Source: Tolypothrix carrinoi HA7290-LM1
GTDB taxonomy: Bacteria > Cyanobacteriota > Cyanobacteriia > Cyanobacteriales > Nostocaceae
DNA length: 64,000 nucleotides
Reading direction: 5' to 3'
Assembly (NCBI GenBank): GCA_019358935.1
Contig: JAHHIK010000009.1
Span: 32,001-96,000, forward strand
Shown here piece by piece: positions 4,324-49,483 of the stretch (positions within the stretch are counted from its first letter, which is position 1; the number at the start of each line of letters is the position of its first letter). The translations under genes and the position numbers were made by a program. The notes beneath the pieces were generated by a model. That model did no database searches. It saw only the letters and a program-made list of their open reading frames with translations, and was not told where the DNA came from.

Positions 4324-4445
4324 CCTATGCCAGCGTGGATGTACAGTAGTTTGAGATACTGTTTCTGTTGCAAAAGTTGAGCGATCGCTCTTGAATCTGT
4401 TGAAAAACAAACAGCCAGGATGTTATCCCGACTGTTTGTTATTTG

Positions 4446-11847: not shown

Positions 11848-12660
11848 TTAGCGCAAGAGTAGGTTATCCCATACGTTTCTAGGTGATACGTGACATTGAA
11901 ATTGTTCTCTTGCTGTCGTAAAGAAAGCGAGCAATCCCGTCTTTTTAGTCTTTTCCCACCATCTTGTCTCTAAGTAGGTGAGTAATAAAGCTTGGGTTGA
12001 TTTATCCTGTTTACTTGTCCAATTACTCACTTCTAGGGCTGTAATTACATTTTTGGGAGGTACTTGCAGTTGGTCGAGTATGCTTTCTGGTATGGAATTT
12101 AACAGACTGTGGAATGCGATCGCACGACCAGGACTGCCTAAACAAAGTTCGAGTATGTCTTGATGGAGGTAGATTTTATGGTTTTCCAGAATAGTTTTTA
12201 GTTCATCAATAGGTAGTTGAGCAAATGGGATTATTTGACACCTACTTTTTATGGTAGGCAGTATATTCTGGGCTTGGGATGTAATGAGGATAAATATTCC
12301 TTTTCCTGGTGACTCTAAGATTTTAAGTAAGGCGTTGGCGGCGTTTAGCGTGATACTGTCGCAGTCGTGGATAATTACTATTTTGCGATCGCCTTCAATA
12401 GGAGAGGTTGAAAGGAAGGCGATCGTTTCCCGTACCTGTTCTACTCCGATAGTAGAATTGTCTTCTTGCGGACGCACTTCCAGCATATCTGTGGTGCTAC
12501 AGATGTAGTCAGCAAATAGTCGGGCAGTTTTGGTTTTACCTACCCCTTCGACGGTGCTGGTAAATAGGTAGGCGCTTGAAATTTGATTTTGGGCAATCGC
12601 ATTATTTAAGATTAGTTTTGCGGTATGCTGCCCGATTATCTCGTTAAAGAGGTTGTTCAT
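11848..12660 (-). CDS. holB: DNA polymerase III clamp-loader delta-prime subunit
   Basis: AYLF..GVGKT, AANALLKILESP, TIKSRCQ, GSPGRA; ATGA overlap with holA. Confidence 0.9.
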   Translation of the reverse strand: MNNLFNEIIGQHTAKLILNNAIAQNQISSAYLFTSTVEGVGKTKTARLFADYICSTTDMLEVRPQEDNSTIGVEQVRETIAFLSTSPIEGDRKIVIIHDCDSITLNAANALLKILESPGKGIFILITSQAQNILPTIKSRCQIIPFAQLPIDELKTILENHKIYLHQDILELCLGSPGRAIAFHSLLNSIPESILDQLQVPPKNVITALEVSNWTSKQDKSTQALLLTYLETRWWEKTKKTGLLAFFTTAREQFQCHVSPRNVWDNLLLR

Positions 12661-13610
12661 AGGGTGCAGATTTTGATGATGGTGGGGGTGAAGTTGTCAA
12701 TGCCAGACTTGAGTTCACCTTCAAGTTGGATTAGTGCTACGAGTATTTGTTTGAGTTTAACGACGCTTACAGCTTCGACTTCTTTTTTGAGGAAGTACAG
12801 CCTTTTGGGGTTGCTGAGTTCGGCGAGTGTTGAGATTTTATTGTCGGGCAGTTTTTCTTCTACCCCAGCTTTCGTAATTAACCAAGTGCGGAAGTAACTT
12901 ATGAGGGTGGCGACTATTTTAAGAGGGTGTTCATCCTCAACTAGTAGGCGGTGGAGTATTTGTCCTGCTGTATCGGCTCTACTATTTTTAATGGCGTGGG
13001 CGAGTTCGGTACAACTGATATTGTTGTTGCTTATAAGTGACTGAACATCTCCTAACTCCAATTTTTGCCCCTGAGCGTAGATAGCAAGTTTGGTTAATTC
13101 GCTATCGAGCCGTGCAGTATTGTTTCCAATTGCCTCCACTAGATAGGTAGTGGCGGCGGGGACAAGCTCTAAGGAATGGGTTTTTACTGCTGCTTGAATT
13201 AGTTTTTCTATTCCTTGTTTATCCCAACTGGGGATGAGAGGAAATTCTTCAACTTCGGCGTGTTTGAATAGTGCTTTGACGACTTTGCTTCTACCATCAG
13301 GTTTCCAAAGTGAGGTAATTAAAAGTAGGTTTGGAGTAGGTACTTTGTCAAGATTTTTTAAGAGTGAGGAAATTATTTCATCCGAACATTTATTGAATAT
13401 TGTCCCATCTGTAATGTGGACAATTTTTCCACCTTCCCCCAAGGGAACTGTCATTACCTCTGTTATTGCCTGGGGTATTGCTGCTGCTTTGTTATCAACT
13501 CGAATGTAGTTGAAGATTTCCCACTCTTGGGTAGTAAAATCTTTAATTAATTCTTCCACCCTTTTTGATATTGAGTGGATATCTTCCCCATAAATTAATT
13601 TTACTGGCAT
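12657..13610 (-). CDS. holA: DNA polymerase III clamp-loader delta subunit
   Basis: LIYGED, KPDGRSK, GNNTARLDSELTKL, EHPLKIVATL and NPKRLYFL match cyanobacterial HolA. Confidence 0.9.
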   Translation of the reverse strand: MPVKLIYGEDIHSISKRVEELIKDFTTQEWEIFNYIRVDNKAAAIPQAITEVMTVPLGEGGKIVHITDGTIFNKCSDEIISSLLKNLDKVPTPNLLLITSLWKPDGRSKVVKALFKHAEVEEFPLIPSWDKQGIEKLIQAAVKTHSLELVPAATTYLVEAIGNNTARLDSELTKLAIYAQGQKLELGDVQSLISNNNISCTELAHAIKNSRADTAGQILHRLLVEDEHPLKIVATLISYFRTWLITKAGVEEKLPDNKISTLAELSNPKRLYFLKKEVEAVSVVKLKQILVALIQLEGELKSGIDNFTPTIIKICTL

Positions 13611-14088
13611 GGGTATCTTGCTAAATGTTTATATATAAGTGCGTTAGCTAGCAAGTGGTGGTAAATAAATTTTCAAGTTATTGATATTTGTAGTTAGTCA
13701 TTATTTCTCCTGTAAATTAGATGGTTAAATTTAATTTTTACAAATTTTATCAATTCGATTCTTTATCATTAGAGTTATTTTAATTAACTTATTTATCCCT
13801 AAATTCATTATTTATAACTTTTGACTGGAGTCTATAAAAAATTAACGCTTGATTTTAATTTTGATGCTATTAGATAACATCCTAGGCTGAAGAGAAGACT
13901 CGCAATTAATGTAAGTACCGCAATTCTAACTAGCGACATTGCGAATAAATCATCTAAATTTTTATAAACTAATCTAGGATTATTATTTCCTATTGGAGTT
14001 ATTATCCACATTACTTTTTGTATATTTAGTGTGAAAAATATTACCACAGACTTATTAATTAGGCTGTAGTAATATCATTTTTATCCTT

Positions 14089-14874
14089 TTATAGGATTCC
14101 CTTGTTGCCAACCGATTGTATATCAACTTTACTTTGGTTGACATCTTGAACTGAATTTATAACTTGCTGAGTACCGTGATATTTGCGCCAGCCATCTAAG
14201 TCGCTTAGGTATTGCAACAGCGCAGATGGACCAGCTACCTGATATAGCGAGATGGCTGATTCCCACTCCCGAAAATTTGCTTTTTTATCGTTGAGAATTT
14301 TGATAATGGCACTGGGAAGTTTGTATCGAGTGCCACTATTTAAATTAATGTGCGGTGTGGTTTCTAGAAGTAGTTCCTGTTCGGATAGGGGTACACCGCC
14401 ATCTTTAAGATTTATCTCGTTTAGTTGGGCAGTTATACCTGAGAGAGGTAGGGTTTGTTGGGTTATACTGGCGACTAATATTTTCTGTTTAGTCTTCCTA
14501 GATTTGACAACTACAGGGTTTTTGGGAATGGGTATTAAGTAGCTTTGTGGAAGTTCAAGTGATAGCTGTTCTTTGAGTCGGTAGGGTAAGGTTTGTTTTT
14601 GGGCTGGGGTAATCTCGTAGGAGAAATTGGCTGTTTGTCTGGGGTCGCCAAACTTTCGGAGTTTGATTCTTACCTTGTAAGATATACTTCCTTGAATGAG
14701 TGTATGACTGTCAATAACTGTAGGTATACTATGTTCCCACCATACAATTTCAACAACTCGGTCGCCGTCTAATGAGTTATAGACATTGGTTAATCTGGCG
14801 TAGGGCTTTACTTCAAGGAAGTTATTTAACCACTTGCGTTGTTTTTTGTTGAGCAGTGATAATTTTTTAGCCAT
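14089..14874 (-). CDS. Hypothetical protein directly downstream of the family-B polymerase
   Basis: 261-aa ORF starting 2 nt after the polymerase stop; internal EQLSLEL. Confidence 0.65.
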   Translation of the reverse strand: MAKKLSLLNKKQRKWLNNFLEVKPYARLTNVYNSLDGDRVVEIVWWEHSIPTVIDSHTLIQGSISYKVRIKLRKFGDPRQTANFSYEITPAQKQTLPYRLKEQLSLELPQSYLIPIPKNPVVVKSRKTKQKILVASITQQTLPLSGITAQLNEINLKDGGVPLSEQELLLETTPHINLNSGTRYKLPSAIIKILNDKKANFREWESAISLYQVAGPSALLQYLSDLDGWRKYHGTQQVINSVQDVNQSKVDIQSVGNKGIL

Positions 14875-14876
14875 TG

Positions 14877-16691
14877 TTAGAAAAGAGTCAGTTGTTTGCC
14901 GCTGTTTAGCATTTTAGGGTTTGCAATTTGCAGGATTTCTACTCGTTTTTGGGCGAGTAATTTGATGTAATACTGTGATGAATACTTTTGTAGGCTGTTG
15001 ATGTCTGTTACACCCAGAATGCTGTAATAATAAGTCACGACATCTCCGGGTTTTCCAAGTTTGAGAAGTTCTTTTTCACCCTCTTTAATTCTGCGAGTAA
15101 TGCACAAGTTTTCTTTTGGATATTCCCTTGATAAAATATGGGATAAAATGTGGGTGTAATACTCTTCTGCTGCTGATATATCTTGGATTAGGAGAGTTAA
15201 ATACTGAATGGAAAACTCTTTCTCTAGTTGCGAGCGATCGCGATTGCGCCAGTTGCCTTTGGTGATGATTTTCCCGTGCGGAAGCCATAGGAGGTAGTTT
15301 TTGGTTCCTCTTTCCGGGATAAACATCGCCGAAGCGATAAACTCTAGTTTGACGGTTATCCCTTCAGGCAGTTGAGATTGAAGTAAACAATGTATCTCTT
15401 CTGGATTGGGGTGGGTGAAAAACACCCCGTCAGTGTCAACTTCCACGGGAGTACCCCCTTCATAAGTGATAATTTCAATCATGAGTTTGAGTACCTTTCT
15501 GCTGTAGGCTGTCACCAAAGCCGCAGCCTCCATATCGTTGAAGGCGAGTTCAGATGTGCCGAAGAAGCCAAATTCGGAGTTAGCTAGAACTTTGACAGAT
15601 TCTCTCTTCTCCTTGGCAGCAATATTTCCACTAGATGCAAGTTGTTCCAGTCTAGATTTTTCATTCACCAGATATTGCAGGATACTTAGCCCAATACGTT
15701 TTGTATCTTTGATTGAGCAAATACCCTTGTCTAGCATTGCCCAAGGGTGCATTGAGCTAATATCTGCATATCCGACCTTTCTATACAGTCCAGGGATAGA
15801 GTAGGCCATGCCTCCCTGGAATTTGTACTTGCGATCGGGTTTGGGTTTATAGCCTGGATAATGATGCTCAAATATTCGCTCCCACTTGGTACCATTACCA
15901 GCAAGTGCTAGCTGCTGGAGATTCATTTCCGGTACAATTAGTGCTTCGTAATAGTATGACGGTACAAGTCTGTTAGCAATTAACTGCGTGTCTTCGAGGT
16001 CGTACACAAGATACTCTTTTAGCCGTTTCCATCCCTTACTGTTGGGGCCATCTTTCCAACAAGCGAGGATTTCCTCATAAGGAAGAACCAGTCTGGTGTT
16101 TTGGCGCAGTCCCATGTCCAATACAGCTTTTTTGAGCGACCTTCCGTTGGTTAGCTTTTTGGTGACAAAATCCCACCTGAGAACGCAGATGTAAACGTCT
16201 ACATGCTGGCTATTTTGGACAAATACCTCCCGAATTTTTAGCGGTTCGCCTCGTACCTTGGCAGTTCGGATAGTCCGAGATTTGGATGCAATTTTAAATG
16301 GGTGTTTTATACCATGCAGGTTGGATCTAGTGATAATGAATGGAATGTCAAATTCCATCCCGTTGTAGGTGAAAATTACATCTGGATTTTTCTTCTTTAA
16401 GTGATTGAAAAAGTCTGTGATAGTTTGTGCTTCTGAAATATTCATAAAAACAGTAGGATATCCCATTTCATCCATACACCCGATGGCATAAATGCGATTT
16501 TCAATTGGGTCTATACCTGCTGTTTCAATATCGACAAATAACTGTGAAAGTTCCTGGTATGGCTTGAGTTGTACTTGCGGTTGCCAGGGTTGAATTGGAG
16601 TGGGGTCTTTCCAATAAATGTCTAGTTTATCTTCATCGACAATGATTATACCCCTAGATTTTTTGACAAAATCCCTGTGGTTATAACTCAT
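14877..16691 (-). CDS. polB: Family B DNA polymerase with a 3'-5' exonuclease domain
   Basis: Exo I VDIET, Exo II YNGMEFD, Exo III YLVYD; polymerase motifs DISSMHP, KVLANSEFG, VDTDG; C-terminal KQLTLF. Confidence 0.9.
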   Translation of the reverse strand: MSYNHRDFVKKSRGIIIVDEDKLDIYWKDPTPIQPWQPQVQLKPYQELSQLFVDIETAGIDPIENRIYAIGCMDEMGYPTVFMNISEAQTITDFFNHLKKKNPDVIFTYNGMEFDIPFIITRSNLHGIKHPFKIASKSRTIRTAKVRGEPLKIREVFVQNSQHVDVYICVLRWDFVTKKLTNGRSLKKAVLDMGLRQNTRLVLPYEEILACWKDGPNSKGWKRLKEYLVYDLEDTQLIANRLVPSYYYEALIVPEMNLQQLALAGNGTKWERIFEHHYPGYKPKPDRKYKFQGGMAYSIPGLYRKVGYADISSMHPWAMLDKGICSIKDTKRIGLSILQYLVNEKSRLEQLASSGNIAAKEKRESVKVLANSEFGFFGTSELAFNDMEAAALVTAYSRKVLKLMIEIITYEGGTPVEVDTDGVFFTHPNPEEIHCLLQSQLPEGITVKLEFIASAMFIPERGTKNYLLWLPHGKIITKGNWRNRDRSQLEKEFSIQYLTLLIQDISAAEEYYTHILSHILSREYPKENLCITRRIKEGEKELLKLGKPGDVVTYYYSILGVTDINSLQKYSSQYYIKLLAQKRVEILQIANPKMLNSGKQLTLF

Positions 16692-16804
16692 GAACTAGAG
16701 ACTTTTCTAATTGTGAATGAAAGATTTTTCGCGTTCAGGATATATTGCAATACTTGTGGGTACTGACTGAGGAAGTATTCTATATCTTTAATACTGGTAA
16801 TCAT
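16688..16804 (-). CDS. 38-aa small ORF overlapping the polB start
   Basis: MITSIKDIEYFLSQYPQVLQYILNAKNLSFTIRKVSSS*; its TGA overlaps the polB ATG (ATGA). Confidence 0.4.
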   Translation of the reverse strand: MITSIKDIEYFLSQYPQVLQYILNAKNLSFTIRKVSSS

Positions 16805-17288
16805 TAACTCTTTATTTTATTCGCACTAGTTAATAATTGGATACTCTAGATTAGAATACTTCAGATTAAAAATAATTTTAATATCAGAATACACCCCATG
16901 ATTTTAAATTTTACTACGTAACAAGAGGAAACTAAACTTATAAACTTATCTAGACTATTTATATTTATAAGATTATGTTTATTCATACTAACTTTAATTA
17001 AGATTATTACCTTTATGGCGTATGCTTGTGCCGTGGTTAACCTCGGTCGCAAAATATTTATAATATTTTTATTAAAGAAAAACCAATTGCTTATCCAATA
17101 CATATACTGATGCTATTGGTTTAATTTTAATATATTTACTGTTTTGCTATTATTATCGTGAAAAAATACGTACTTGAATGGGAAAAGAGAAAAATTATGT
17201 TTAAATGTTAAGCCCAAAAATAAAAAAAATTAATTAAAAAGTTGAAACCTCTTTTAATTGCCAAAACTAAAAGAGGTTTTAACTTATG

Positions 17289-17519
17289 CTATGCTTGTTG
17301 GCTGTTGTTCAAGTATGCTTGAAATCGTTGGACTATGGCTTTGATTTCTTGTGCAGCTAGTACAGCAGCGAAAGTATCATTTGCTAGTTCTTGGTTAATA
17401 AACATCCCATGTTCATTTTTAGGACTTTCTTCGATTTGTCCTCCTGCATCATTTTCAATTTGTTCTCCTAATTCTTCTAAAGTTTTTAATTGTTGTTGAA
17501 ATAATTTGCGATATTCCAT
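17289..17519 (-). CDS. Small hypothetical helical protein
   Basis: 76-aa ORF co-oriented between dnaX and polB, followed by a hairpin. Confidence 0.55.
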   Translation of the reverse strand: MEYRKLFQQQLKTLEELGEQIENDAGGQIEESPKNEHGMFINQELANDTFAAVLAAQEIKAIVQRFQAYLNNSQQA

Positions 17520-17627
17520 GTATTTAACAAAGAAATTGTAAGTTGTATAATATTAAGAGCGTTAGCTATAGCTGCGGTTTTATTTGAACTAATAACTAAC
17601 TCTCCCTAATCAGGGAGAGTTGCTATT

Positions 17628-18917
17628 CTAAGCTTGTTGCAGTTGTGTTTGTTGCAACTTTTGAATAACTTCCACCCACACTAAGGCTTTCTTTCCATTA
17701 ATGGGTGTAAGCTTTTGCCAGTGTTCCTGTAACTGTGTCTGCGATAAGTGGGGTAACTGTTCTTTTGCCCAGTTAATTGCGTCTTGGGCAGTTTTCCAAT
17801 CCTTCCAGGGTTGAGTTTGGGAACTATTCTTTGTGGTTTGAACTATCTCGATAATGGTAGCTTCCATCCACAAGTGCGCGTTTTCATCTCGCATAAGATT
17901 TTGACGTGCCATCAGGAGTGCGATCGCACTGTGGATGTGGTTAACGCTCCACGATTTGGAGATTGTTGTAAGGGAATTCCAGGTTTCCTCTTCGAGTTGG
18001 GTAATATTTCTGCCATCGGGGTTGGTTTTGCAGACAAGCAGGTCTTTTAGAAAGCTGACAAGGCTTGTGTGGATGGTGATTGGGTGCTTGCCGCATTCAA
18101 TCCAATTTTGGAGAATGCCTAAATTGCCTGTAATTTGTCTAAGAGTGATATTTTCAAAGAAAGTGACTAAATCGTATTCGGGGATAATACCCGATAGTTC
18201 CCATACCCAATTGGGAGTGATTTCTCCTTCTCCCAGCAAGGTTAGTTGGTCTAAAAGTTTGAGTGAGTCGCGCAAGTGTCCCTTGTTTGTTTTGGCGACG
18301 GCTGTTAATGCTAGCGGATTGATATTTATACCTTCCTGGTGGGCAACTTTTTCTAGGTAATTTACAACTAGTGAGAGGGTAACCCTTCTAAAATCGAACT
18401 TTTGGCAGCGGGAGGTAATAGTTTCTGGGACTTTGTGTACCTCGGTGGTACAGAAGATGAACACAACATGGGCTGGTGGTTGTTCTAATGTTTTGAGTAA
18501 TGCTTGCCACGATTGGTGGGAAAGGGCATGACATTCATCTATTATTAGGATTTTGTACCTACCCTCGATTGGTTTAAGTTGAAGGTTGGATACCATCTCG
18601 CGGATGTTATCTACACCAGAGTGGCTGGCGGCATCAAGTTCGGTTACATCGAGAGATGAGGAGTGGGAAATAGTCTGACAAGAATTGCACTCGCCACAGG
18701 GTTCGGTTGTTGGTTCCTCTGTTGATTGACAGTTGAGAGATTTGGCGAGAATGCGCGCTGTAGTCGTTTTACCCGTACCCTTGGGACCGGTAAATAGATA
18801 GGCTGGGGCAGTCTTTTTGAGCAAGATCGCATTATTCAGGGTGCGTACAATATGTTCTTGTCCGACTATTTGTGAAAGTTGCTGGGGGCGATACTTGAGA
18901 TGCAGTGGTGTGTACAT
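17628..18917 (-). CDS. dnaX: DNA polymerase III clamp-loader subunit gamma/tau
   Basis: LKYRPQ, GPKGTGKTT, zinc module C..PCGEC..C, ELDAASHSGVD, IIDECH, TITSRCQ. Confidence 0.95.
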   Translation of the reverse strand: MYTPLHLKYRPQQLSQIVGQEHIVRTLNNAILLKKTAPAYLFTGPKGTGKTTTARILAKSLNCQSTEEPTTEPCGECNSCQTISHSSSLDVTELDAASHSGVDNIREMVSNLQLKPIEGRYKILIIDECHALSHQSWQALLKTLEQPPAHVVFIFCTTEVHKVPETITSRCQKFDFRRVTLSLVVNYLEKVAHQEGININPLALTAVAKTNKGHLRDSLKLLDQLTLLGEGEITPNWVWELSGIIPEYDLVTFFENITLRQITGNLGILQNWIECGKHPITIHTSLVSFLKDLLVCKTNPDGRNITQLEEETWNSLTTISKSWSVNHIHSAIALLMARQNLMRDENAHLWMEATIIEIVQTTKNSSQTQPWKDWKTAQDAINWAKEQLPHLSQTQLQEHWQKLTPINGKKALVWVEVIQKLQQTQLQQA

Positions 18918-18987
18918 ATTTGAGAAAGTCAAATTTTCTAAATGGATTTGTGTATAGCCAGTAAAAATGCTGGCTATACTTGTTGGT

Positions 18988-24134: not shown

Positions 24135-24968
24135 TTAGACAGTGTGATATTTATCTAAGTTTTTAACTGTGGTTTGGATACTGCGACAAGACATAGAAAT
24201 TAGGTTGAAGTAGCTAACAAACTTGCTTATTTTTCCTATTAGGGTTAACTCTAATAGGTATTGGGATGCAATGGCTGATGTCATGCGGTTTATGAATAGA
24301 GTTTGGTGATTAAGTATTTGAATTTCCGCACACGAGAGGTTGTTGCTGCTAAGTTCTTCAGGCTTTGGGATTAGTAATTCGGGATGTACCAGCGCTGGGG
24401 ATGGTAGGTGTTTCCAGAATGCGGGTTTATCTGGGTTATTGGAGGCGGTTACAATATTGAAATCAGCGTGGGTTCCTAATATAACTTGTCCTGATAGTGA
24501 ACTGTTACCGCAGTCTAGCCAGAAGAAGTCAGCTTGTTCGCGCGGGCTGTTATATTTTAAACACGAGTGAATTTGTGCCCTGGCGGCAGCATTGTCCACG
24601 CAGCCGATGATAATTGTGAGGGTATTCCACTTGTAATTTTCTACATGGTTAGGGGAAAACCAATCTGAAATTGCTGTTACTACTACCCCATATTTGGCAC
24701 TGCACCTGGTGGCTAGACATTGTGCTTTGGGAAAACTTATCTCAGATGGTTGGTAATTTTGGCGTGCGATATTTTTAGGTTCGACGCTATCTCCATCGAT
24801 GATGGTGAGGTTAGCCTTTTTCTCGTTTTGCTGTAGCTGTACTATGAGGCGGCAAACATCTTCGGCAAGATACCCCCCTGTGCCACCAGCCCCTACTAAA
24901 ATAAAATTTACTTTGCGGTGGGGACGGGGGAGAACGGGTAAGAAAAATTCTGTGTCGATTTGTATCAT
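24135..24968 (-). CDS. ThiF/E1-like adenylyltransferase of a PRTRC-type cassette
   Basis: LVGAGGTGG, DGDSVEPKNIARQ, GCVDNAAAR, WLDCGN, GQVILG, LSCAE. Confidence 0.9.
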   Translation of the reverse strand: MIQIDTEFFLPVLPRPHRKVNFILVGAGGTGGYLAEDVCRLIVQLQQNEKKANLTIIDGDSVEPKNIARQNYQPSEISFPKAQCLATRCSAKYGVVVTAISDWFSPNHVENYKWNTLTIIIGCVDNAAARAQIHSCLKYNSPREQADFFWLDCGNSSLSGQVILGTHADFNIVTASNNPDKPAFWKHLPSPALVHPELLIPKPEELSSNNLSCAEIQILNHQTLFINRMTSAIASQYLLELTLIGKISKFVSYFNLISMSCRSIQTTVKNLDKYHTV

Positions 24969-25537
24969 AACTCAAATATCAAATTAGGGTCAATTTCAAT
25001 GAAGTGGTTGTATGCCCCTACGCGGGTGTAGATGGTAGGCTTTTTGTCAACTGTGCCGATAATTCCAAATATGCGGAACTTTCCTGACTCCTCTTGGTTG
25101 TCTTGGTTGCTGGGGATTGCTCTCATACAGCCGTGTGAGTGGATTTCAACCAATGTTTGGCTGTATCTGAGGTTTGTATTTTCCAGCGAGCGCACATGAG
25201 TTGAGGATGCTTCTTGTGCTGGTGTGTGACACCACCATTGGCTATTTGCAACCCCCAAATAAAAAAGGATTTCTTGATGGGGATTAATCCGCGCAGCATT
25301 GATGATGTCTGCAATTATGCTTGCTGGCACTTTTGGTACATTTAACTTGAAATAGGGTTGTATTTGTGCCAATCCTATTATGTGGGTATGGGCGATTTGC
25401 AAGCAGATTTCTAATTCTGGGCGGTGCGATCGCGCATATACTCCATCAGATGCAAGCCAGTATTCCTGAAGTTTTTGGCTCTTTGGGGGAAGGTTGTGAC
25501 TGACAGCGTAGTTATAGCTGATGAAGAGGTTATTCAT
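24965..25537 (-). CDS. JAB/MPN metallopeptidase (PRTRC protein A-like)
   Basis: Upstream E (HQEIL) and EIHSHG...PSNQD JAMM motif. Confidence 0.85.
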   Translation of the reverse strand: MNNLFISYNYAVSHNLPPKSQKLQEYWLASDGVYARSHRPELEICLQIAHTHIIGLAQIQPYFKLNVPKVPASIIADIINAARINPHQEILFYLGVANSQWWCHTPAQEASSTHVRSLENTNLRYSQTLVEIHSHGCMRAIPSNQDNQEESGKFRIFGIIGTVDKKPTIYTRVGAYNHFIEIDPNLIFEL

Positions 25538-26246
25538 GTTGGAATAGATACTTGGGTATATCGTTTGGCGTTTTGATTGTTTGATACTCTCTAGCGACTA
25601 ATTCCTTTGCTGGGAAGGATTTTGTGGTTCGTAGGCTGATCAACAAGTCGCAGACATTGTGGGGGTGTGATTTTGATTTGTTTTGGCTGAAGTCTTGGTT
25701 GAAAGGGCTGTTCCAGAACAATTTCCAGGTTTTATTGATTGAGTCGGGATTACAAGCAGGTGGGATGTTCCTACCGAAGCAAATTTTATTTGAGTCGTCC
25801 CAAATATTTGGTAACGGCGCTTTGTATAATTGACAATCCTGCTTGAAGGTTCTTCCTTTAACTGCCCATAAGTAGTAGCTGCTGTTGCATCCAGCGAATA
25901 TAAATGCTGGCATGGGAATAGTTATTGTATTGTTTCCTTCTGGAGTTTGTATTGAGACTGAATATTTTTGGGGCGGGTAAAATTGAATAATACCTTCTCC
26001 ATTTGGTGTTATTTCCCACCACAGCGTATTGGGAGATAACCATCCTGAATTTACAGTTTTGGCTGTAAACGCTTTTTCCACAGCTTCAGGCGATAGAAAT
26101 TTATGCTGTGTTTTATTACCTTCTTTTTCTATCAGTACAAACTGTCCTTTGAGAATGATTAGATGCCCTAAAATTTCCTGCTGTGGAATGTTATTCAGTA
26201 TGACTTGAGTGTTTAATCCTGTATTTATATGGCAGCTTGATTCCAT
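25530..26246 (-). CDS. Prokaryotic E2 family protein (PRTRC protein B-like)
   Basis: IPMPAFIF, LWAVK, LYKAPLPNIW...KICFG, FWNSPFN. Confidence 0.8.
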   Translation of the reverse strand: MESSCHINTGLNTQVILNNIPQQEILGHLIILKGQFVLIEKEGNKTQHKFLSPEAVEKAFTAKTVNSGWLSPNTLWWEITPNGEGIIQFYPPQKYSVSIQTPEGNNTITIPMPAFIFAGCNSSYYLWAVKGRTFKQDCQLYKAPLPNIWDDSNKICFGRNIPPACNPDSINKTWKLFWNSPFNQDFSQNKSKSHPHNVCDLLISLRTTKSFPAKELVAREYQTIKTPNDIPKYLFQHE

Positions 26247-26947
26247 ATTTTGACTACCTTCTTTCGATTGGCTATTGATACTTCTATCCAGTCTGATAAC
26301 TCTTCAAATTGGTTTAATATGATGCTGGCTTCTTGCCATTTATCGGCGATCAGTAATACATTTTCTTCACTCCACTCCCACCAATATCCAGTTTCATAGG
26401 TTGTGTCTAACCAAATATTGCCTGTTGAATAGTCGAGAACACTCAGGCTAGTTACTAAATATTTGATTGGTGATTTTAACTTGTTACAGATTTTTACAAG
26501 TTTTTGAAAGTCTATATTTTCCACATCTGCTATATAATCAGGTTTAAACCCAAATTCTTCTTCCCAATATTCAAGGCTATACCCACTACCCATAACCGAG
26601 AGTAAGAATTTTTCGCTTGCCTCTAAATCTTCAAGGTTTTCATTCCACCATTCAAGTCTTTGTGGTAATATAGCTATACTTTCATACTCTCCGTATGTTT
26701 CTATTTCATCAATAAATTCAACTGGAAACAAGTTTGAATTTACTAGGTGAATAAATTCAATTTCTCTATCTGAATATATGCAATCAGGATGTGTTTTTCT
26801 GTTTATAGGTGTTTTTGACTCATACCATTCTTCTGCAAATAGTTTTTGATATAAACTGAGTAAACTTGCTTTTTGAGAGAAGTTTTCCAGATAGGTGATT
26901 GCTTCTGTACAGGTGATGGGTATTTTAAATAGTTCTAGTGATATCAT
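26225..26947 (-). CDS. Hypothetical acidic protein in the PRTRC cassette (positional equivalent of protein F)
   Basis: Lies between the Ubl and E2 genes and overlaps E2; STGNIWLD motif. Confidence 0.55.
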   Translation of the reverse strand: MISLELFKIPITCTEAITYLENFSQKASLLSLYQKLFAEEWYESKTPINRKTHPDCIYSDREIEFIHLVNSNLFPVEFIDEIETYGEYESIAILPQRLEWWNENLEDLEASEKFLLSVMGSGYSLEYWEEEFGFKPDYIADVENIDFQKLVKICNKLKSPIKYLVTSLSVLDYSTGNIWLDTTYETGYWWEWSEENVLLIADKWQEASIILNQFEELSDWIEVSIANRKKVVKIWNQAAI

Positions 26948-26991: not shown

Positions 26992-27414
26992 CTACAATAC
27001 GGGATAATTGCTGGATGCAGGGGGTTGTTGTCCGAGGGACTTAAAAACCTTATCTGTATATGTTTCCCAGTTTTCCCCCATTTTGATTGTCTGATTTATT
27101 TGTGAGCGCATACTAATTAAAACTTCTAAAGTTAGTTGATTTTTTATTTCTAGAAGCTTCAATTCCCAAGCTAATACAAACGCTGGGTTAATTTGTTCAG
27201 ATGCTAATTTGAGTTCTGTGATGCAATTACCCTTGGTTCCAGCGCGTTTAACAAGTCTTATTTCGGTTGTTTCTCCTGTAGTTGTACGAGTAATTTCGGC
27301 ATTGGCATATTCTGGAAAATAAGTGCTGATTGCCAGTCTTAGCTTGTTGTCATCTATTGCTGTATTTGGTGGGATAGGAACTTGCTGCCCTTCGATAATA
27401 GCGATATAATTCAT
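26992..27414 (-). CDS. Prokaryotic ubiquitin-like protein (PRTRC protein C-like) with a 78-aa C-terminal extension
   Basis: YFPEYANAEI...LVKRAGTKG is the protein C signature but occurs internally, ending at residue 62 of 140. Confidence 0.75.
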   Translation of the reverse strand: MNYIAIIEGQQVPIPPNTAIDDNKLRLAISTYFPEYANAEITRTTTGETTEIRLVKRAGTKGNCITELKLASEQINPAFVLAWELKLLEIKNQLTLEVLISMRSQINQTIKMGENWETYTDKVFKSLGQQPPASSNYPVL

Positions 27415-27419
27415 GGCGA

Positions 27420-27869
27420 TTAGAATAGTGAAAGTTGTTGTTTATCCGACTCGTTTGGATGGAAGTTATTAGATAAATCTCGTTTTTGTACTTGTTTACG
27501 CTCCTGAGATTGATTAATATGATTAAGAGCAATCTTTCTTTTTTCGGCGGCTTCAATAATTTTAGGTAAGGCTACCTCTAATTCTTGAATACTTTCTTGA
27601 ATGATGGTTTGTTGGGTTATTTCCTGATAGCTAGCATTTTTGATAATGGGAGGTGCATTTTTAATACCAATGGAGAAAATAGCCTGTTGCTCGTCTGGAT
27701 AAATTTGGATGGTTATTAGATAGACTTTAGGGTTTGATATGCTGTTGCTGTTATCTTCATAATCATCTGTTTCATCACTATCTTCTAAGCTATTGTTGTT
27801 ACTAGAATTCAAATCACTACTGTAACTAGCTTTGGAGTTAGTTACACTTTCTTGCTCTTGATTGTTCAT
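27420..27869 (-). CDS. Hypothetical protein (positional equivalent of PRTRC protein E) ending QQLSLF
   Basis: ATG at 27869 overlaps the primase stop (ATGA); acidic N-terminus; stop lies 5 nt before the Ubl gene. Confidence 0.6.
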   Translation of the reverse strand: MNNQEQESVTNSKASYSSDLNSSNNNSLEDSDETDDYEDNSNSISNPKVYLITIQIYPDEQQAIFSIGIKNAPPIIKNASYQEITQQTIIQESIQELEVALPKIIEAAEKRKIALNHINQSQERKQVQKRDLSNNFHPNESDKQQLSLF

Positions 27870-28834
27870 GAGAGGTTGGCAAATTTTGCAAGGGTACGAA
27901 TGGTAATGCCTGTTCTGCGGAAAGACTGCCATTTGTAGGCACATTCTCCTGGTTTGTATTTGGGTGATAGTTGACTCCATATGTCCCAGGCTTTGAGTAA
28001 GGTAGGGCTGACTGATTTAAGTGCCATTCCAACTTGAATCCAAGTTGTATAGTCAGAAGCGAACCTGGGGTGTATGACTTCTAAGAATGTAAGTGCAGCT
28101 TGAATATTGGTTTCAATATCGGGGTATAAGTTTACGCATCTGTTTGCCTGATGTGTGCGGTTAGATTTTTCTTGGAGAGAACTCGATGGAGAGTGAATTA
28201 CCCTTTCCTTCTCCTGCTTTAATAGCATTTGGGCTACTACCCAATCTGGTGCGTAAGCAACTTGTTTTTCTTGCGGACTGCAACCGGGAACCCACCGATA
28301 GTATCTTCCTTCTGGGTGGTAGGAAGGAGGTAAAACTGACGCATGATTTTTACCTCTAAACTCCAGATTTGAGATTTTGCTGGACTTGATTGATGATTTT
28401 TCAGTGATTAAGTATAGAAGTTGGCGCTTGTATTCACCTCCAGAGGTGAAGGCGACAGTCGCCGGGAGGTATGCAAGTGCGCTTTCGTATAACTTTTGGG
28501 GAGAAATTTTGTCTATTTCACCCTCTTCTAGTTTTTTGTTGAGGATTAGAATTTGACCCCAGGCGCGGAATCCGTCGCAGTCGATAGCGACGATGTGTCC
28601 TTCGGGTTGGTTATCGCCGCAGACAATAGCAACCCCAGTGGCAGGTGTATACCTCTTCCCCGACCAAATTTTGCATCTAGTACGAATGAGTTCGGCTTGT
28701 AGCTGTTTGGGTGAGTAAGTTTTATACTGCCATTCTTTTCCCCCCAGAGGTCGCTTGCCAAATGTGGGTATAACCCTCCATCTGTCGGGTAGTGTTTCCA
28801 GGGACGAGATAATTTTACCTGCCTGGGCGTGCAT
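27866..28834 (-). CDS. Bifunctional primase-polymerase (Prim-Pol, AEP fold) with a PriCT-2 domain
   Basis: VIP..GKRP, TGVAIVCG, VAIDCDG, SVLPPSYHP; C-terminal DYTTWIQVGMALK...WDIWSQLSPKYKPGEC..KWQSF. Confidence 0.85.
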   Translation of the reverse strand: MHAQAGKIISSLETLPDRWRVIPTFGKRPLGGKEWQYKTYSPKQLQAELIRTRCKIWSGKRYTPATGVAIVCGDNQPEGHIVAIDCDGFRAWGQILILNKKLEEGEIDKISPQKLYESALAYLPATVAFTSGGEYKRQLLYLITEKSSIKSSKISNLEFRGKNHASVLPPSYHPEGRYYRWVPGCSPQEKQVAYAPDWVVAQMLLKQEKERVIHSPSSSLQEKSNRTHQANRCVNLYPDIETNIQAALTFLEVIHPRFASDYTTWIQVGMALKSVSPTLLKAWDIWSQLSPKYKPGECAYKWQSFRRTGITIRTLAKFANLS

Positions 28835-28940
28835 GATTTCATTTGATTCCTACTAGTTAACTTTAGTAACTAGATGCATGAGCTTTTGGTGGTGGTTAGC
28901 TGTATTTTGGGCAAGCAGTTATTACTACTTGCCCTATGTT

Positions 28941-29672
28941 TTAGGCTAATCGTTGACTAAGAGCATTTTCCACTTGATAAGTTCCAAGAGTGCAGTTTGC
29001 ATCATAGGGGAAAGTGGGAAATTCCGGGAATTTATTTATAGCTTTTGTTACCCTACACATCACCATTGCTCCCTCCCTTCCCTTTTTGTTTAGTAAGTGA
29101 TGATAGCTGATGACTTCAAATTCATTGTTACCTGCTTCAAATTTGCTTTTTGCGTGTAGGGAAATAGCCTTTTCCCAATTGGGTTGCCATGACATAAGGG
29201 TATTGATTGCTTTTTCTCTAAATGTCGTGTTATCCATGTAATTAAGAATATCTGATACACAACTCTCCCTTTTAGCTATAACTTCGCGAGCGTAATTAAT
29301 TAACCAGTATTCTGCTTCTTGAAGTAGGGTGCGTGATTTTCTATCCAGGCATATTTCGTCATGGCTTTTTGCCATTACATATGCCCGTTGCTCAAAAACC
29401 ATACCGTTAAGGCGCATTTTTAAATCAGATGGATAAAAGGTCATCAAATCAGCTAATTCATCACTAATTGCAGGTAAGGGATATTTGATCGGGGGATAGA
29501 TTTTGACTTGATATCCTAAATTTACTGCATGTTCAACTATTAGGTGAATATCGGATGCAGGGATACAATCACCTATTTGGTAATTTTTATCCAGAAGTAA
29601 ATATGTTGGCGCATGAACAATTTGGAATTTTTGAGGTGATTGTTCGCAGTCAGGAACTAGCTCTACGTACAT
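28941..29672 (-). CDS. Hypothetical protein
   Basis: About 243-aa ORF between the helicase and primase genes. Confidence 0.6.
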   Translation of the reverse strand: MYVELVPDCEQSPQKFQIVHAPTYLLLDKNYQIGDCIPASDIHLIVEHAVNLGYQVKIYPPIKYPLPAISDELADLMTFYPSDLKMRLNGMVFEQRAYVMAKSHDEICLDRKSRTLLQEAEYWLINYAREVIAKRESCVSDILNYMDNTTFREKAINTLMSWQPNWEKAISLHAKSKFEAGNNEFEVISYHHLLNKKGREGAMVMCRVTKAINKFPEFPTFPYDANCTLGTYQVENALSQRLA

Positions 29673-29815
29673 AATACTAACCAAATTATTTTTTATTTGG
29701 TTAGGCGTTAGTTAGTGTCGTGATTTTGCTGTTGCAGTGTTGTGTAAAATTTCTTATAAAGCTAATAGACTTCATATAAAAAGTTCTGCTCTTAATGTAT
29801 AGAGCAGAACTTGTT

Positions 29816-32518
29816 TTAGACTATTTGTACTTCTTGTTGGATTAAATTTTGAAGTATAAGTAATCCAACTTGTTTGGAGATTGCTGTATTGTCATCGGGG
29901 CATCTGTAAATAACAGTACAGTTTGAACACCCGTGCTTGCATGGACAATTTTCCACTAAGAATCTTGCCCTCGATACGGCTTTTTCCAGATATTGAAATA
30001 GTGTATTGCACATTCCGGTTCCTCCCTCAACTGTATCGAAGAAGTAGCCGACTAAGTTAGGCTGAGTTGGTTCTTCATAAAGCATAAAGTCAATATCTTT
30101 ACTACTAGCACCATGTTCAACTAGTGGTAATGCTAGCATCAGTTGATGTGCTAGACTGTGGATACAAATGTCGGTTTCTTTATATTCAAATAACTCCCTC
30201 TCCTCTTTTGGAATGTACTTCTGATTCTTTATTGGTAACCTAATTTGCTCTACTTTTGACTTGAAGAAATTTCTCGCTTGTCGGTCTATCTCAATTTGCA
30301 AACAACTGGTAGAACAGCTAATAGTCAAAGCTTCCTTATATAATACTTCTTCTACTAGTTGGATTATGTCTTTATCTGTGAGTTCGCTGTTGCATATGGA
30401 ACAGTTTTGTAGTTTACTTGCTAGAGATTGATTGTGGTTTCTGCAATCTTGGTTTGGACAAGTCCATTTTGACTCTCGATTGTATAACCTGTATCCGGAC
30501 ACTGACTCAGAGATGTTACATATTTTAGGAGTAAGTTTTATTACTCCCATTGGCAGTTTGATTGACTTTGCTTCCCCAGTAGTTTTAACTTCCTCAAATT
30601 TAATTAGTCCTTGAGGGCGGGTAAATAAATTTGTTTGTCCAATAGGCTTGAGGAAAGCTTGCCCTTCTTGGATTTTTAACTCTGATGATTTATACCAAAC
30701 TGGATTACCATCAAAATCCTGGGCTGTATAAATTGCATTAGGGTATACTTCTCTTAAAGCAGTGTTGACCGCACTTTGTTCAAACTCCTCCCCAGTTGAG
30801 GTGTTGATATAGTTGATATTGTTGCTTCTGCTCCCCCTAATCTTGATATCGCCGTGTACGTAACCTAAATTGCGGGCGCACGCTAGCTTGCTGTTGAAGC
30901 TGTACACGAGCTTGTTTTCTTGAAGAAGTTGGTTTGCGATCGCAAGTCCAGTTTGTCCGAAATGCTTGCTGATTTGGTTGATTGTCGGGCGTGACTCTTT
31001 GCAGCAGGCTAGAATATGGCACGCGAGTAGATTTTCAAAATTGGGGTTGAAGTTGATGATCTCCGGTGGGTCGGTTAACAACCGTTCGGGATTTTTCGAG
31101 TAGTAAGAGTCTAAAATAGACTGTTTGGAAGGTATGAAGACAACTAGCCCTTCTTGTTTTCTGCCGGCACGACCTGCCCTTTGCCGGAAGGATAGGATGC
31201 TTCCAGGATACTTGCAAATCAGGACGGCATCAATACAGCCGAGGTCTAACCCCGCTTCGAGAGCTGACGTTGACACGATAAACTTGATTTCCCCAGATTT
31301 GATATCTGCAATGATTTTCCTCCTTTGGTTGTTTTTCAAATTGGCGTAAAATGCAGAAATACTATTTTGGAGGTGAAATAACCCATTTTCAGTTAATATT
31401 TTGCGGATTGTTTGGGTTAGGGTTTTGACCATTTCTCTGCTGTCGCAAAAGCATATTCCCACCACATCTTTACTGACAAGTGAAGCTGCTATTTCGGCGG
31501 TTGCGTACAAAGTACTATTCTGGGGTTTGAGACTGATAAATGTGGTTTCAGCTTTTCTTGCACCGCTTTGGCTAATTACTGTAAAATTGCTTTTACGGTT
31601 GGAAATCTTTTGGGCTATCTCTTGGCTATTGCTGATAGTAGCTGAGGCAAAGATATATTGTAATTTGGATATATCACTTCCAGCTAGTTTTATCAGTAGT
31701 TGAGTGCGACGGTTTAGCAAAGCGAAATTGCTACCAAAAATACCACTATAGTAATGAGCCTCATCAACCGTGATTATGGAAATTTTGCGTAGTGTTTCAA
31801 TGAAGTTATAGTTATCAAATTGGTAGTTGGTAAGCTCGTGATTCCAAACATCGGGCGTGACGCAAATAATCGAGGGTTTATGTGTATAAAGCTTTTTGCG
31901 CTCTTGGGATGGAGTATCGCCATTAATATTTAGAATTGCGGGGCGGATAGGCTCTGGTAGGAGATTGATAAACTCCTTTATTTTCTCCTCTTGGTCAAAT
32001 GCAAGGGCTTTGAGGTTGAAGAAGATGATACATGAATTGCCTTTGAGACATTCGTGAATAACTGGAAGTAGGAATGAAATCGATTTTCCACTACTTGTTG
32101 GAGTTTCGAGAATGATATCTGATGATTGGTTGTATGCTGACCATGCTTGAATCTGGTGGGAGTATAATTGATTAATTCCTAATTGAGCGAGAGCCATACT
32201 TACTGCTGGATGGACATTTTCTGGTATTGGTTGATAGTTTGCCGCTTGTTCGGGAATTATATCGCAGTGGGCAAGTTTATTTCTACCTTCTAGCTCAGAT
32301 GCTATTTGTTGATAAATTAAACTTCTTGGAGATAGAGCATTTTGAACAGGGCTAAGATTTCCTTGTTCTATTTCCTCCCTCCAATTGAAGATAACTTGGC
32401 TAATATTCCCTTTTATGAAATGGAGATTTTCGCCAATAATTGTGCTAATTTGAATTGTTCCGTACTGTTTGGAGTAAATGCTGCGACTTGGTTGTAACCA
32501 CTCTGGTCGGTTGTTCAT
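29816..32518 (-). CDS. SF2 DEAH helicase with a C-terminal DUF1998/4-Cys zinc domain (Hrq1/MrfA/SftH-like)
   Basis: LYSHQ, TPTSSGKS, VDEAH, ASAT, STSALEAGLD, QRAGRAGR, FDTVEGGTG, CPCKHGCSNC...C. Confidence 0.9.
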   Translation of the reverse strand: MNNRPEWLQPSRSIYSKQYGTIQISTIIGENLHFIKGNISQVIFNWREEIEQGNLSPVQNALSPRSLIYQQIASELEGRNKLAHCDIIPEQAANYQPIPENVHPAVSMALAQLGINQLYSHQIQAWSAYNQSSDIILETPTSSGKSISFLLPVIHECLKGNSCIIFFNLKALAFDQEEKIKEFINLLPEPIRPAILNINGDTPSQERKKLYTHKPSIICVTPDVWNHELTNYQFDNYNFIETLRKISIITVDEAHYYSGIFGSNFALLNRRTQLLIKLAGSDISKLQYIFASATISNSQEIAQKISNRKSNFTVISQSGARKAETTFISLKPQNSTLYATAEIAASLVSKDVVGICFCDSREMVKTLTQTIRKILTENGLFHLQNSISAFYANLKNNQRRKIIADIKSGEIKFIVSTSALEAGLDLGCIDAVLICKYPGSILSFRQRAGRAGRKQEGLVVFIPSKQSILDSYYSKNPERLLTDPPEIINFNPNFENLLACHILACCKESRPTINQISKHFGQTGLAIANQLLQENKLVYSFNSKLACARNLGYVHGDIKIRGSRSNNINYINTSTGEEFEQSAVNTALREVYPNAIYTAQDFDGNPVWYKSSELKIQEGQAFLKPIGQTNLFTRPQGLIKFEEVKTTGEAKSIKLPMGVIKLTPKICNISESVSGYRLYNRESKWTCPNQDCRNHNQSLASKLQNCSICNSELTDKDIIQLVEEVLYKEALTISCSTSCLQIEIDRQARNFFKSKVEQIRLPIKNQKYIPKEERELFEYKETDICIHSLAHQLMLALPLVEHGASSKDIDFMLYEEPTQPNLVGYFFDTVEGGTGMCNTLFQYLEKAVSRARFLVENCPCKHGCSNCTVIYRCPDDNTAISKQVGLLILQNLIQQEVQIV

Positions 32519-47437: not shown

Positions 47438-47475
47438 ATATTACAACTTAATTGCTACAAGCTTTAATGAAATTA

Positions 47476-48258: not shown

Positions 48259-48264
48259 TGTTGA

Positions 48265-49413: not shown

Positions 49414-49483
49414 GGGCACTTGTGTTATACCGTTTGTAGGGAGCCATCTCTGCAATCAGAGATGACTAATTGATTAAAGAAAA

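What the first reader, a model, noticed from the sequence alone, without database searches (positions are those of the whole stretch)
26992..27414. Ubiquitin-like protein made as a precursor: internal AGTKG followed by 78 extra residues
Seen: the protein C signature KRAGTKG ends at residue 62 (Gly codon 27229-27231), but the frame continues with a helical 78-aa segment. Established: E1 adenylation needs a free C-terminal Gly, and JAB peptidases can mature Ubl precursors. Inference: the adjacent JAB cleaves after Gly62, releasing mature Ubl and a second polypeptide that may have its own role.
Basis: partly seen in the sequence, partly recalled or inferred. Interest (0 to 1): 0.7.

Follow-up and report, generated by a model that had tools for sequence, protein, structure and literature searches.

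The report
Ubiquitin-like precursor with helical passenger
On a plasmid-like element, a small ubiquitin-like tag is encoded in one piece with a conserved 78-residue helical protein; the operon's protease likely cuts them apart, because related operons split the gene at that point and one lineage whose tag needs no trimming has deleted the protease while keeping the other genes.

Summary
Observation confirmed on the minus strand: a 140-aa ORF, with Gly62 at 27229-27231 and 78 residues after it. One correction: the JAB gene is the third gene downstream, not adjacent. The locus is a divergent PRTRC / Iyer-2006 type 6d cassette (Ubl, E2-like, JAB, E1) on a conjugative-plasmid-like element.

The extension is old, not a lost stop: 139 of the 150 best distant relatives carry it, and it is under purifying selection. 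Two separate lineages split the gene at or 2 residues after the Gly and keep the helix as its own gene. In operons with intact E1 and E2, JAB is present in 54 of 54 fused and 18 of 18 short-tailed cases. It is deleted in 5 of 6 cases where the Ubl ends at Gly (one event), and the remaining genes stay under selection.

Cleavage after Gly62 is therefore likely (0.85) but not shown; the passenger's function is unknown. Precursor Ubls are known (BubAB, BilA), and this scan noted similar PRTRC precursors on other DNA. The JAB-loss pattern and a clamp-motif neighbour beside a plasmid-borne clamp and clamp loader were not found in my searches.

The parts
26992..27414 (-). Ubl precursor gene, 140 aa (Ubl 1-62 + helical passenger 63-140)
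   Evidence: homologs
27229..27414 (-). Ubiquitin-like (beta-grasp-type) domain, residues 1-62, ending KRAGTKG
   Evidence: AF2 model beta-beta-alpha-beta-beta; ubiquitins rank among the top Foldseek rows, prob up to 0.96 but E>0.1; VIA Z 5.3-5.7 over residues 1-60; hhalign to two annotated PRTRC protein C, prob 90%, E 1.6e-6
27229..27231 (-). Gly62 codon, predicted cleavage and adenylation site
   Evidence: Gly kept in 146 of 147 distant relatives with a whole Ubl domain (partly by eye); natural stops fall at it or 2 codons after it
26992..27228 (-). Helical passenger, residues 63-140 (helical hairpin with conserved L68, N76-P77, I106, G113, L127 and a Pro-rich end, GF in most relatives)
   Evidence: 114 of 150 relatives end in GF; median dN/dS 0.26; separate gene in split operons; no in-frame start codon between residues 2 and 84
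27420..27980 (-). Upstream gene in the protein-E slot, 186 aa, ending QLSLF (beta-clamp-binding-type motif)
   Evidence: no TIGR hit; motif in the last 9 residues in 86 of 93 loci vs 15 of 4777 background ORFs; consensus QLxLF from PMC4549789
26225..26947 (-). Gene in the protein-F slot, 240 aa, conserved in this subfamily, family not identified
   Evidence: alignment of 21 sequences; no match to PRTRC F by HMM or hhalign
25530..26246 (-). E2-like protein (Prok-E2_D, PRTRC B-like), Cys156
   Evidence: PF14460 E 5e-40; TIGR03737 63.5 bits, below cut-off 131.45; Cys invariant in 18 of 18
24965..25537 (-). JAB/JAMM metallopeptidase (PRTRC A-like), E89, H133, H135, S143, D146 intact
   Evidence: PF14464 E 1e-8; TIGR03735 53.4 bits, below cut-off 101.8; motif invariant in 18 of 18
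24135..24968 (-). E1-like ThiF adenylyltransferase
   Evidence: TIGR03736 135.5 bits, cut-off 144.75; PF00899
18988..20304 (-). Context: element-borne DNA polymerase III beta clamp (dnaN) homolog, same strand
   Evidence: three Pfam clamp domains
11848..18932 (-). Context: clamp-loader homologs (11848-12660, 12657-13610, 17628-18932) and a family B polymerase-like gene ending QLTLF (14877-16691)

Best explanation
The gene encodes a ubiquitin-like domain fused after Gly62 to a conserved helical protein, and the operon's JAB peptidase likely cuts the bond after Gly62, which would release a tag with a free C-terminal glycine and a separate 78-residue partner in equal amounts. Shown: the fusion, its age, selection on both halves, intact catalytic motifs, natural fissions at the junction, and JAB deletion in a lineage whose Ubl needs no trimming. 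Inferred from family knowledge: E1 would adenylate Gly62 and pass the tag through the E2 cysteine to a target. The passenger is likely a non-enzymatic adaptor subunit of the same system, because it always sits between the Ubl and the F-slot gene and has no conserved catalytic-type residues; this last step is weak (about 0.5). The most likely target is the element's own replication machinery, a guess at about 0.25.
For: (a) The Gly is kept in 146 of 147 relatives with a whole Ubl domain, while the next residue takes 14 different values; the top residue is at most 22% in columns 63-67. This segment is the model's least confident, pLDDT 63 for residues 61-70. (b) Split operons: the Ubl ends G*, GVK*, GVN*, GAT*, GTT* or GAI* and the helix is the next gene. 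(c) Two split clades are nested separately among fused lineages; monophyly of split forms is rejected at AU p=0.0007 and of fused forms at p=0.00015 (21 of 35 taxa, 2000 replicates). (d) Of 95 loci, those with intact E1+E2 keep the JAB motif in 54 of 54 fused and 18 of 18 short-tailed cases, but in 1 of 6 that end at Gly. (e) The JAB loss is a clean deletion of about 600 bp at one shared junction, leaving an 18-codon remnant. Ubl, helix, F-slot, E2 and E1 of four such operons have pairwise dN/dS 0.06-0.39. G499, G504 and G506 have no match to the JAB alignment. (f) Two Deinococcus plasmids and one Parabacteroides plasmid have protein C ending GTKG* and no PF14464 match on the record. (g) Unrelated passengers, including an HNH nuclease, and five-unit poly-Ubls follow the same motif. 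(h) Precedent: BubCD cuts BubAB after G229 (PMC11601596); BilC trims BilA after G97 (PMC10557695).
Against: No cleavage, conjugation or expression was shown. The 5 JAB-less operons are one deletion event, and the 54 and 18 are largely close kin, so the table cannot be tested as independent counts. These operons decay often: 16 of the 95 loci have E1 or E2 broken, missing or cut by a contig end, so gene loss is common. JAB is also kept where no trimming is needed (L157; Methylomonas L168), which fits a deconjugating role equally well. Two of the four JAB-less operons used for dN/dS lie in genomes with a second operon that has a JAB (G502, G508); the chromosome behind L076 was not searched, nor were unrelated chromosomal JAB proteins in these genomes. 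One relative (P0145) has Ala in place of the Gly. The window E2 has Asp where Iyer 2006 describe a conserved His. The fold scores of the Ubl domain are modest.
Confidence: 0.85

Rival explanations
1. The fusion is not cut. The 140-aa protein works as a two-domain scaffold or adaptor, the GxKG motif is a binding surface, and JAB acts on other substrates.
For: The fused form is the commonest and appears ancestral in this subfamily. Two-domain proteins often split in their linker whether or not they are cleaved. No cleavage data exist.
Against: It does not explain why JAB is lost only where the Ubl ends at Gly, why E1 and the E2 cysteine are kept in operons with no other Ubl found, or why unrelated passengers and poly-Ubls follow the same Gly.
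Confidence: 0.08
2. The precursor is cut, but the released tag is a sulfur carrier (thiocarboxylate, ThiS/MoaD-like) or an adenylated donor for a small-molecule or nucleic-acid modification, not a protein tag.
For: E1/ThiF and JAB pairs also serve sulfur-transfer operons (PMC1779556 Table 1 rows 4a-4e). No conjugation by a PRTRC system appeared in my searches.
Against: An E2-family gene with an invariant Cys is part of the operon. No sulfur-metabolism gene was recognised among the window ORFs I scanned (not all ORFs were scanned). This rival accepts the cleavage step and differs only downstream.
Confidence: 0.12
3. The extension results from recent stop-codon loss or read-through and is functionless.
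For: Classical protein C can be a stand-alone protein of about 70 aa, and some relatives stop at the Gly.
Against: 139 of 150 distant relatives are fused, including sequences that sources name as Acidobacteria. The extension has median dN/dS 0.26. Split forms keep the helix as a gene and are nested among fused ones.
Confidence: 0.01
4. The passenger is an intramolecular lock or chaperone whose only job is to keep the Ubl inactive until JAB is switched on.
For: A blocked Gly cannot be adenylated (PMC10557695), so the fusion does gate activation.
Against: The helix is kept and selected as a separate gene where it no longer blocks the Gly, also in JAB-less operons (dN/dS 0.06-0.14). A 2-residue tail gives the same block.
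Confidence: 0.1

Closest known systems
PRTRC cassette (TIGR03734-03742) = operon type 6d of Iyer, Burroughs & Aravind 2006 (PMC1779556); equating the two is my inference from gene content
   Same: Ubl, alpha-helical gene, E2-like, JAB with N-terminal domain and E1-like genes in one operon on mobile elements. Table 1 row 6d lists Anabaena PCC 7120 and A. variabilis, whose plasmids carry this same 140-aa gene.
   Different: The paper describes small stand-alone Ubls with a C-terminal Gly and, in the parts I read, no extension. All window genes score below the TIGR cut-offs; the E- and F-slot genes are unmatched; no ParB gene lies beside the cassette. Long protein C also exists among annotated PRTRC systems (Rhodoferax 141 aa, Manganitrophus 105 aa), but those tails show no similarity to this helix.
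Type I Bub pre-protein BubAB cut by BubCD (PMC11601596)
   Same: A Ubl fused after its Gly to a folded partner and released by the operon's JAB domain; only Type I operons, where the Ubl is fused, encode the JAB (passages). This is the same logic as the JAB-loss pattern here.
   Different: There the passenger is the E2, JAB is fused to E1, and chemistry runs through Tyr/Ser oxyesters. Here the passenger is a helical hairpin of no known family, E2 is separate and has a Cys, and the setting is a plasmid replication region.
Type II Bil: BilA trimmed by BilC (PMC10557695)
   Same: JAB removes residues after the Ubl Gly before E1 can act; the short GVK*/GAT* tails of split relatives are of this kind.
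   Different: BilA tails are at most nine residues; here the tail is a conserved 78-residue domain that can be its own gene.
Eukaryotic ubiquitin fusion precursors (ubiquitin-ribosomal protein fusions, polyubiquitin); recalled, not from a call
   Same: Tag plus passenger made 1:1 and separated by a deubiquitinase; poly-unit forms also occur in this family (P0074, P0132).
   Different: No sequence relationship of the passenger; single terminal Gly in a GxKG motif instead of Gly-Gly.

Membership tests
PRTRC / type 6d cassette | E1-like ThiF family gene | tested here: met
   TIGR03736 is the best hit, E 1.8e-39, 135.5 bits, slightly under the 144.75 cut-off; PF00899 over cut-off
PRTRC / type 6d cassette | E2-like protein (Prok-E2_D) with conserved Cys | tested here: met
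   PF14460 137 bits; Cys156 invariant in 18 of 18
PRTRC / type 6d cassette | Conserved His C-terminal to the E2 Cys (Iyer 2006) | tested here: not met
   No invariant His in the alignment; the window has PFNQDF where others have PFNGHL. Which His the paper means is my reading of the text; the figure was not seen.
PRTRC / type 6d cassette | JAB peptidase with intact metal-binding motif | tested here: met
   PF14464 over cut-off; E89, H133, H135, S143, D146 invariant in 18 of 18
PRTRC / type 6d cassette | Ubl of the protein C / Prok_Ub family | tested here: met
   No direct hit for the window protein. 15 of 114 relatives hit PF14454 and 9 of 114 hit TIGR03738 weakly; relative L164 passes the PF14454 cut-off; hhalign prob 90%.
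PRTRC / type 6d cassette | Ubl is stand-alone with the Gly at the C-terminus | tested here: not met
   78 residues follow; several annotated protein C also have tails, so the feature does not hold for the whole family
PRTRC / type 6d cassette | Alpha-helical protein F and protein E | tested here: inconclusive
   Genes occupy both slots, but no TIGR or Pfam match and no hhalign match to four classical F-slot proteins
PRTRC / type 6d cassette | Adjacent PRTRC ParB-family gene | tested here: not met
   The nearest recognised ParB is at 6768-7748, about 16 kb away, beside ParA; not scanned against TIGR03734
Beta-grasp / ubiquitin fold | beta-beta-alpha-beta-beta fold superimposable on ubiquitin | tested here: met
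   Model pLDDT 85-97 over residues 1-60; VIA Z 5.3-5.7, rmsd 1.8-3.2, 52-60 aligned residues to several Ubls; Foldseek E-values not significant. Scores are modest.
JAB-processed Ubl pre-proteins (BubAB, BilA type) | Cleavage directly after the conserved Gly by the operon's JAB | not testable with these tools
   Only indirect genomic support
Type I Bub operon | Passenger is an E2; JAB fused to E1; BubE present | tested here: not met
   Passenger is a helical hairpin; JAB and E1 are separate genes; BubE not seen among the scanned neighbours

The most novel reading that the evidence does not exclude
These elements carry a PCNA-ubiquitination-like system. The JAB-matured tag is attached, through the neighbouring protein that ends in a beta-clamp-binding motif, to the element's own sliding clamp or a clamp-bound polymerase to control plasmid replication, and the co-made helical passenger is a previously unrecognised dedicated subunit (adaptor or E3-like) of the cascade.
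Probability: 0.15. Interest if true: 0.85.

Novelty: new variant of a known kind. Interest (0 to 1): 0.55.

Why it matters
PRTRC/6d cassettes have been catalogued since 2006; in my searches I found no experiment on them. The comparison here gives a predicted cut site, a predicted enzyme and a natural minimal system: the JAB-less operon on the Planktothrix agardhii plasmid, where the tag is born mature and should not be removed by a cognate JAB, so conjugates should accumulate and targets be easy to map. It also points to a small, overlooked component in the slot after protein C, and to a testable target class (the plasmid-borne clamp and loader). The same 140-aa gene is on plasmid beta of the laboratory strain Nostoc PCC 7120, so genetics is feasible.

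Tried and rejected
Passenger family: no Pfam or NCBIfam hit; no PDB sequence match below E 0.048; the Atlas returned only a 0.77 hit to a cluster with 11% PF14454; fold searches of the helix alone gave best Z 5.2 to generic hairpins and no BFVD match at E<=0.001. This does not show a new fold.

Idea that the helix is the missing N-terminus of classical protein F: no support by hmmsearch or hhalign against four sequences; a weak test.

Idea that the 71-aa Rhodoferax tail, the 71-aa Burkholderia ORF and the 37-aa Manganitrophus tail are homologs of the helix: no similarity detected.

A separate start codon for the passenger in the window: none in frame between residues 2 and 84.

G423, which ends at Gly and has a JAB: that JAB belongs to a different, second operon, so it is uninformative. 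L079 (tail GVN*, no JAB motif) is not a counter-example because the same deletion removes the E1 nucleotide-binding loop.

The invariance of G59 and G62 in alignment A2 is circular, because rows were picked by that motif; I use the unselected count instead.

No RNA holder listed. No phage record in INPHARED matched P0034. One metagenome scan found nothing and the other one short locus. Burroughs et al. 2011 (Mol Biosyst; recalled) was not held and may discuss these fusions.

Full report
Observation. The finding is an ORF on the minus strand, 27414..26992, 140 aa. KRAGTKG ends at Gly62 (codon 27231-27229) and 78 residues follow. The genes around it run the same way: 27980..27420 (186 aa), the Ubl gene, 26947..26225 (240 aa), 26246..25530 (Prok-E2_D, E 5e-40), 25537..24965 (Prok-JAB, E 1e-8) and 24968..24135 (ThiF; TIGR03736 135.5 bits against a cut-off of 144.75). 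JAB is thus the third gene downstream, not adjacent. The closest named proteins are from filamentous cyanobacteria (97% to a Hassallia protein), all 34 of 34 plasmid records hit are cyanobacterial, and the window has ParA/ParB and conjugation genes. I infer a cyanobacterial conjugative plasmid or similar element. The genome has a second, divergent copy of the operon with the same fusion.

Is the first half a Ubl? The window protein hits no family. Of 114 aligned relatives, 15 hit Prok_Ub and 9 hit PRTRC protein C weakly, and one viral-contig relative passes the Pfam cut-off. A profile of residues 1-62 aligns to two annotated protein C sequences at 90% probability, ending on the shared GTKG. 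The AlphaFold model (mean pLDDT 91.5, pTM 0.52) gives beta-beta-alpha-beta-beta for 1-55, a low-confidence stretch at 61-70 and helices after it. Ubiquitins are among the best structural neighbours of the first half, with modest scores. I accept the Ubl call.

Is the extension real and old? All 19 close homologs keep it (only 77-245 aa were searchable). An exhaustive profile search found 364 clusters at 50% identity and listed the best 150: 139 are Ubl plus helix, 5 Ubl alone or with another tail, 3 multi-Ubl and 3 helix alone. A full-length profile favours fused forms, so this is not a census. Among these 150, 144 matched a G-x-[KL]-[GA] pattern, 143 with Gly and one (P0145) with Ala; three more have the Gly by eye, giving 146 of 147 with a whole Ubl domain. 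The residue after it takes 14 values, and 114 of 150 proteins end in GF. Conservation collapses in columns 63-67 and returns at L68, N76, P77, I106, G113 and L127. Across 40 fused 140-codon genes, median pairwise dN/dS is 0.04 for the Ubl (515 usable pairs) and 0.26 for the extension (423 pairs). Sources name some relatives as Acidobacteria, and 4 viral contigs carry relatives, 2 of them full fusions.

Natural splits. In Oscillatoria PCC 7112 the Ubl ends GSKGVK* and an 82-aa helix gene starts 3 bases later; in Pseudanabaena ABRG5-3 it ends GTKGAT* before an 83-aa gene. In Planktothrix agardhii and relatives it ends exactly at Gly. A ThiF+E2 tree of 35 loci, rooted on Parabacteroides, places the Oscillatoria/Planktothrix split clade and the Pseudanabaena split clade at separate positions among fused lineages (supports 81-89 and 94). 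On 21 of these taxa, an AU test rejects one clade of split forms (p=0.0007) and one clade of fused forms (p=0.00015) (fast searches, 2000 replicates, fewer than the program advises). This assumes the Ubl gene travels with E1 and E2. In viral contig L164 the Ubl carries a different passenger and a helix-like gene follows separately (weak score).

JAB tracks the need to cut. I scored 95 loci. Among those with intact E1 and E2, the JAB motif is present in 54 of 54 with a long tail (52 with this helix, plus L164 and L165 with other or variant tails), 18 of 18 with a 2-residue tail, and 1 of 6 ending at Gly. One further intact locus lacks the Ubl half at a contig end, and 16 have E1 or E2 broken, missing or cut off and were set aside. 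The five JAB-less operons (L076, L123-L126) share one deletion of about 600 bp that leaves an 18-codon remnant, so they are one event. After it, four of them kept diverging under purifying selection: dN/dS 0.07-0.21 for Ubl, 0.06-0.14 for the helix (ORFs taken from a start 3 codons early in some), 0.08-0.20 for the F slot, 0.13-0.39 for E2 and 0.06-0.19 for E1. G499, G504 (87% complete), G506 and G246 have no match to the JAB alignment; G502, G508 and G423 have a second operon with a JAB. Outside cyanobacteria I read protein C in 7 plasmids. Three with tails (3, 37 and 71 aa) all have JAB; of four ending at Gly, Methylomonas keeps JAB, while two Deinococcus plasmids and one Parabacteroides plasmid have no Prok-JAB match (chromosomes not searched). 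The rule seen is one-way: a tail always comes with JAB, and no tail makes JAB optional. This is what maturation by JAB predicts. Against it: few independent events, frequent decay of these operons, and retention of JAB beside mature Ubls (L157, L168), which suggests a second, deconjugating role.

The passenger. Alone it folds confidently as a helical hairpin with a Pro-rich tail (pLDDT 95, pTM 0.72) with only generic structural neighbours. Its conserved residues are hydrophobic or structural, so I infer a binding subunit, not an enzyme. It has no in-frame start of its own near its beginning in the window, so here it can arise only from the fusion. Other sequences follow the same Gly in other relatives, among them an HNH nuclease (P0226) and several unrelated domains, so the Ubl behaves as a general cleavable leader. 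Classical cassettes also fill the slot after protein C with a short Pro-rich-ending polypeptide, fused in Rhodoferax and separate in Burkholderia, but I could not show homology. Its partner is untested.

What the system may act on. The gene just upstream ends in QLSLF, the beta-clamp-binding consensus (PMC4549789, passages). Defined by position, the upstream ORF has such a motif in its last 9 residues in 86 of 93 loci, against 15 of 4777 six-frame ORFs of the genome; the pattern was chosen after seeing the data and many loci are kin. The window encodes, on the same strand, a clamp, three clamp-loader homologs, a family B polymerase-like protein ending QLTLF, a primase-polymerase and a helicase. 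Six of 10 plasmids tested carry a clamp gene, 5 of 6 cyanobacterial and 1 of 4 others. In Leptolyngbya boryana the clamp lies about 1 kb upstream of the cassette and holA directly after E1. This makes the element's replisome the best guess for the target, but co-location in a plasmid backbone is a sufficient alternative, and the Pseudanabaena plasmid tested has neither a clear motif nor a clamp.

Comparison with what is known. Iyer, Burroughs and Aravind 2006 (PMC1779556; I read section 14, passages, Table 1 rows and term searches of 3 supplements; figures not seen, and supplement 2 gave only 20,032 characters of text) define type 6d, list Anabaena PCC 7120 and A. variabilis, and call the Ubls small and stand-alone, although their type protein RSc1661 is listed at 129 aa. 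JAB processing is shown for BubAB (PMC11601596, passages) and BilA (PMC10557695, passages). PMC11601603 had no relevant passage for my terms; PMC3318190 only names PRTRC (passages). Searches listed no paper on processing in PRTRC systems, on this passenger or on a clamp link; subscription papers, including Burroughs 2011, were not searchable. Earlier notes of this scan describe tailed, poly-unit and JAB-fused PRTRC Ubls on other DNA, but none on this sequence or on JAB loss.

Verdict. The system works like BubAB/BilA maturation and is a divergent member of the PRTRC/6d kind; it fails the 'stand-alone Ubl', 'E2 His' and 'adjacent ParB' features. Cleavage after Gly62 by the operon's JAB: 0.85. 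New variant of a known kind; interest 0.55.

Noticed in passing
window 11848-20304 (-), 27866-32518 (-): The element carries its own clamp, three clamp-loader homologs, a family B polymerase-like gene ending QLTLF, a primase-polymerase and a DEAD/MZB helicase, all on the strand of the Ubl cassette.
   Followed up: partly
window 27420-27980 (-): The gene before the Ubl ends in a clamp-binding-type motif in 86 of 93 loci.
   Followed up: partly
L089 (G000:C24, about 47300-51500): Second, divergent, apparently intact copy of the operon in the same genome, also with the fused Ubl.
   Followed up: partly
P0074, P0132: Five-unit poly-Ubl proteins, each unit ending AGTKG, with a 3-4 residue cap. Context not seen.
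   Followed up: no
P0226, P0133, P0134, P0215-P0233: Other passengers fused after the Ubl Gly, including a NUMOD4-HNH endonuclease; inserted genes may exploit the cut site.
   Followed up: partly
L153 about 216-430, L169 about 4160-4350, L166 4212-4427, L167 4001-4426: A short reading frame ending in a Pro-rich hydrophobic tail follows protein C in Deinococcus (unannotated) and Burkholderia, and is fused to it in Rhodoferax; possibly an overlooked general PRTRC component. No homology shown.
   Followed up: partly
L155 7221-7607: A Bacillus plasmid protein ending SGAKKG has an acidic N-terminal arm containing QLALF, i.e. a clamp-type motif in the same chain as a probable Ubl.
   Followed up: no
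L159 1-299 and 5272-6222: In Leptolyngbya boryana the cassette lies between a clamp gene and holA; its junction reads AGQNG and its JAB has HSHPP.
   Followed up: no
L035, L079, L078, L127, L003, L077, L073/L075: Frequent decay of the cassette by deletion, insertion or nonsense change.
   Followed up: partly
L002 8590-10156; L152 9277-10726: Defence-type genes (DncV-like cyclase with SAVED; SIR2) are annotated just downstream of the cassette in two plasmids.
   Followed up: no
L153 13-5675: Deinococcus proteolyticus has one protein C followed by two tandem sets of F-slot, E2-like and ThiF genes.
   Followed up: no
window 22037-23131 (-) and 23396-24070 (-): A methyltransferase-like gene with QLSLF near its start, and a weak PD-(D/E)XK-like gene, follow the cassette.
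   Followed up: no
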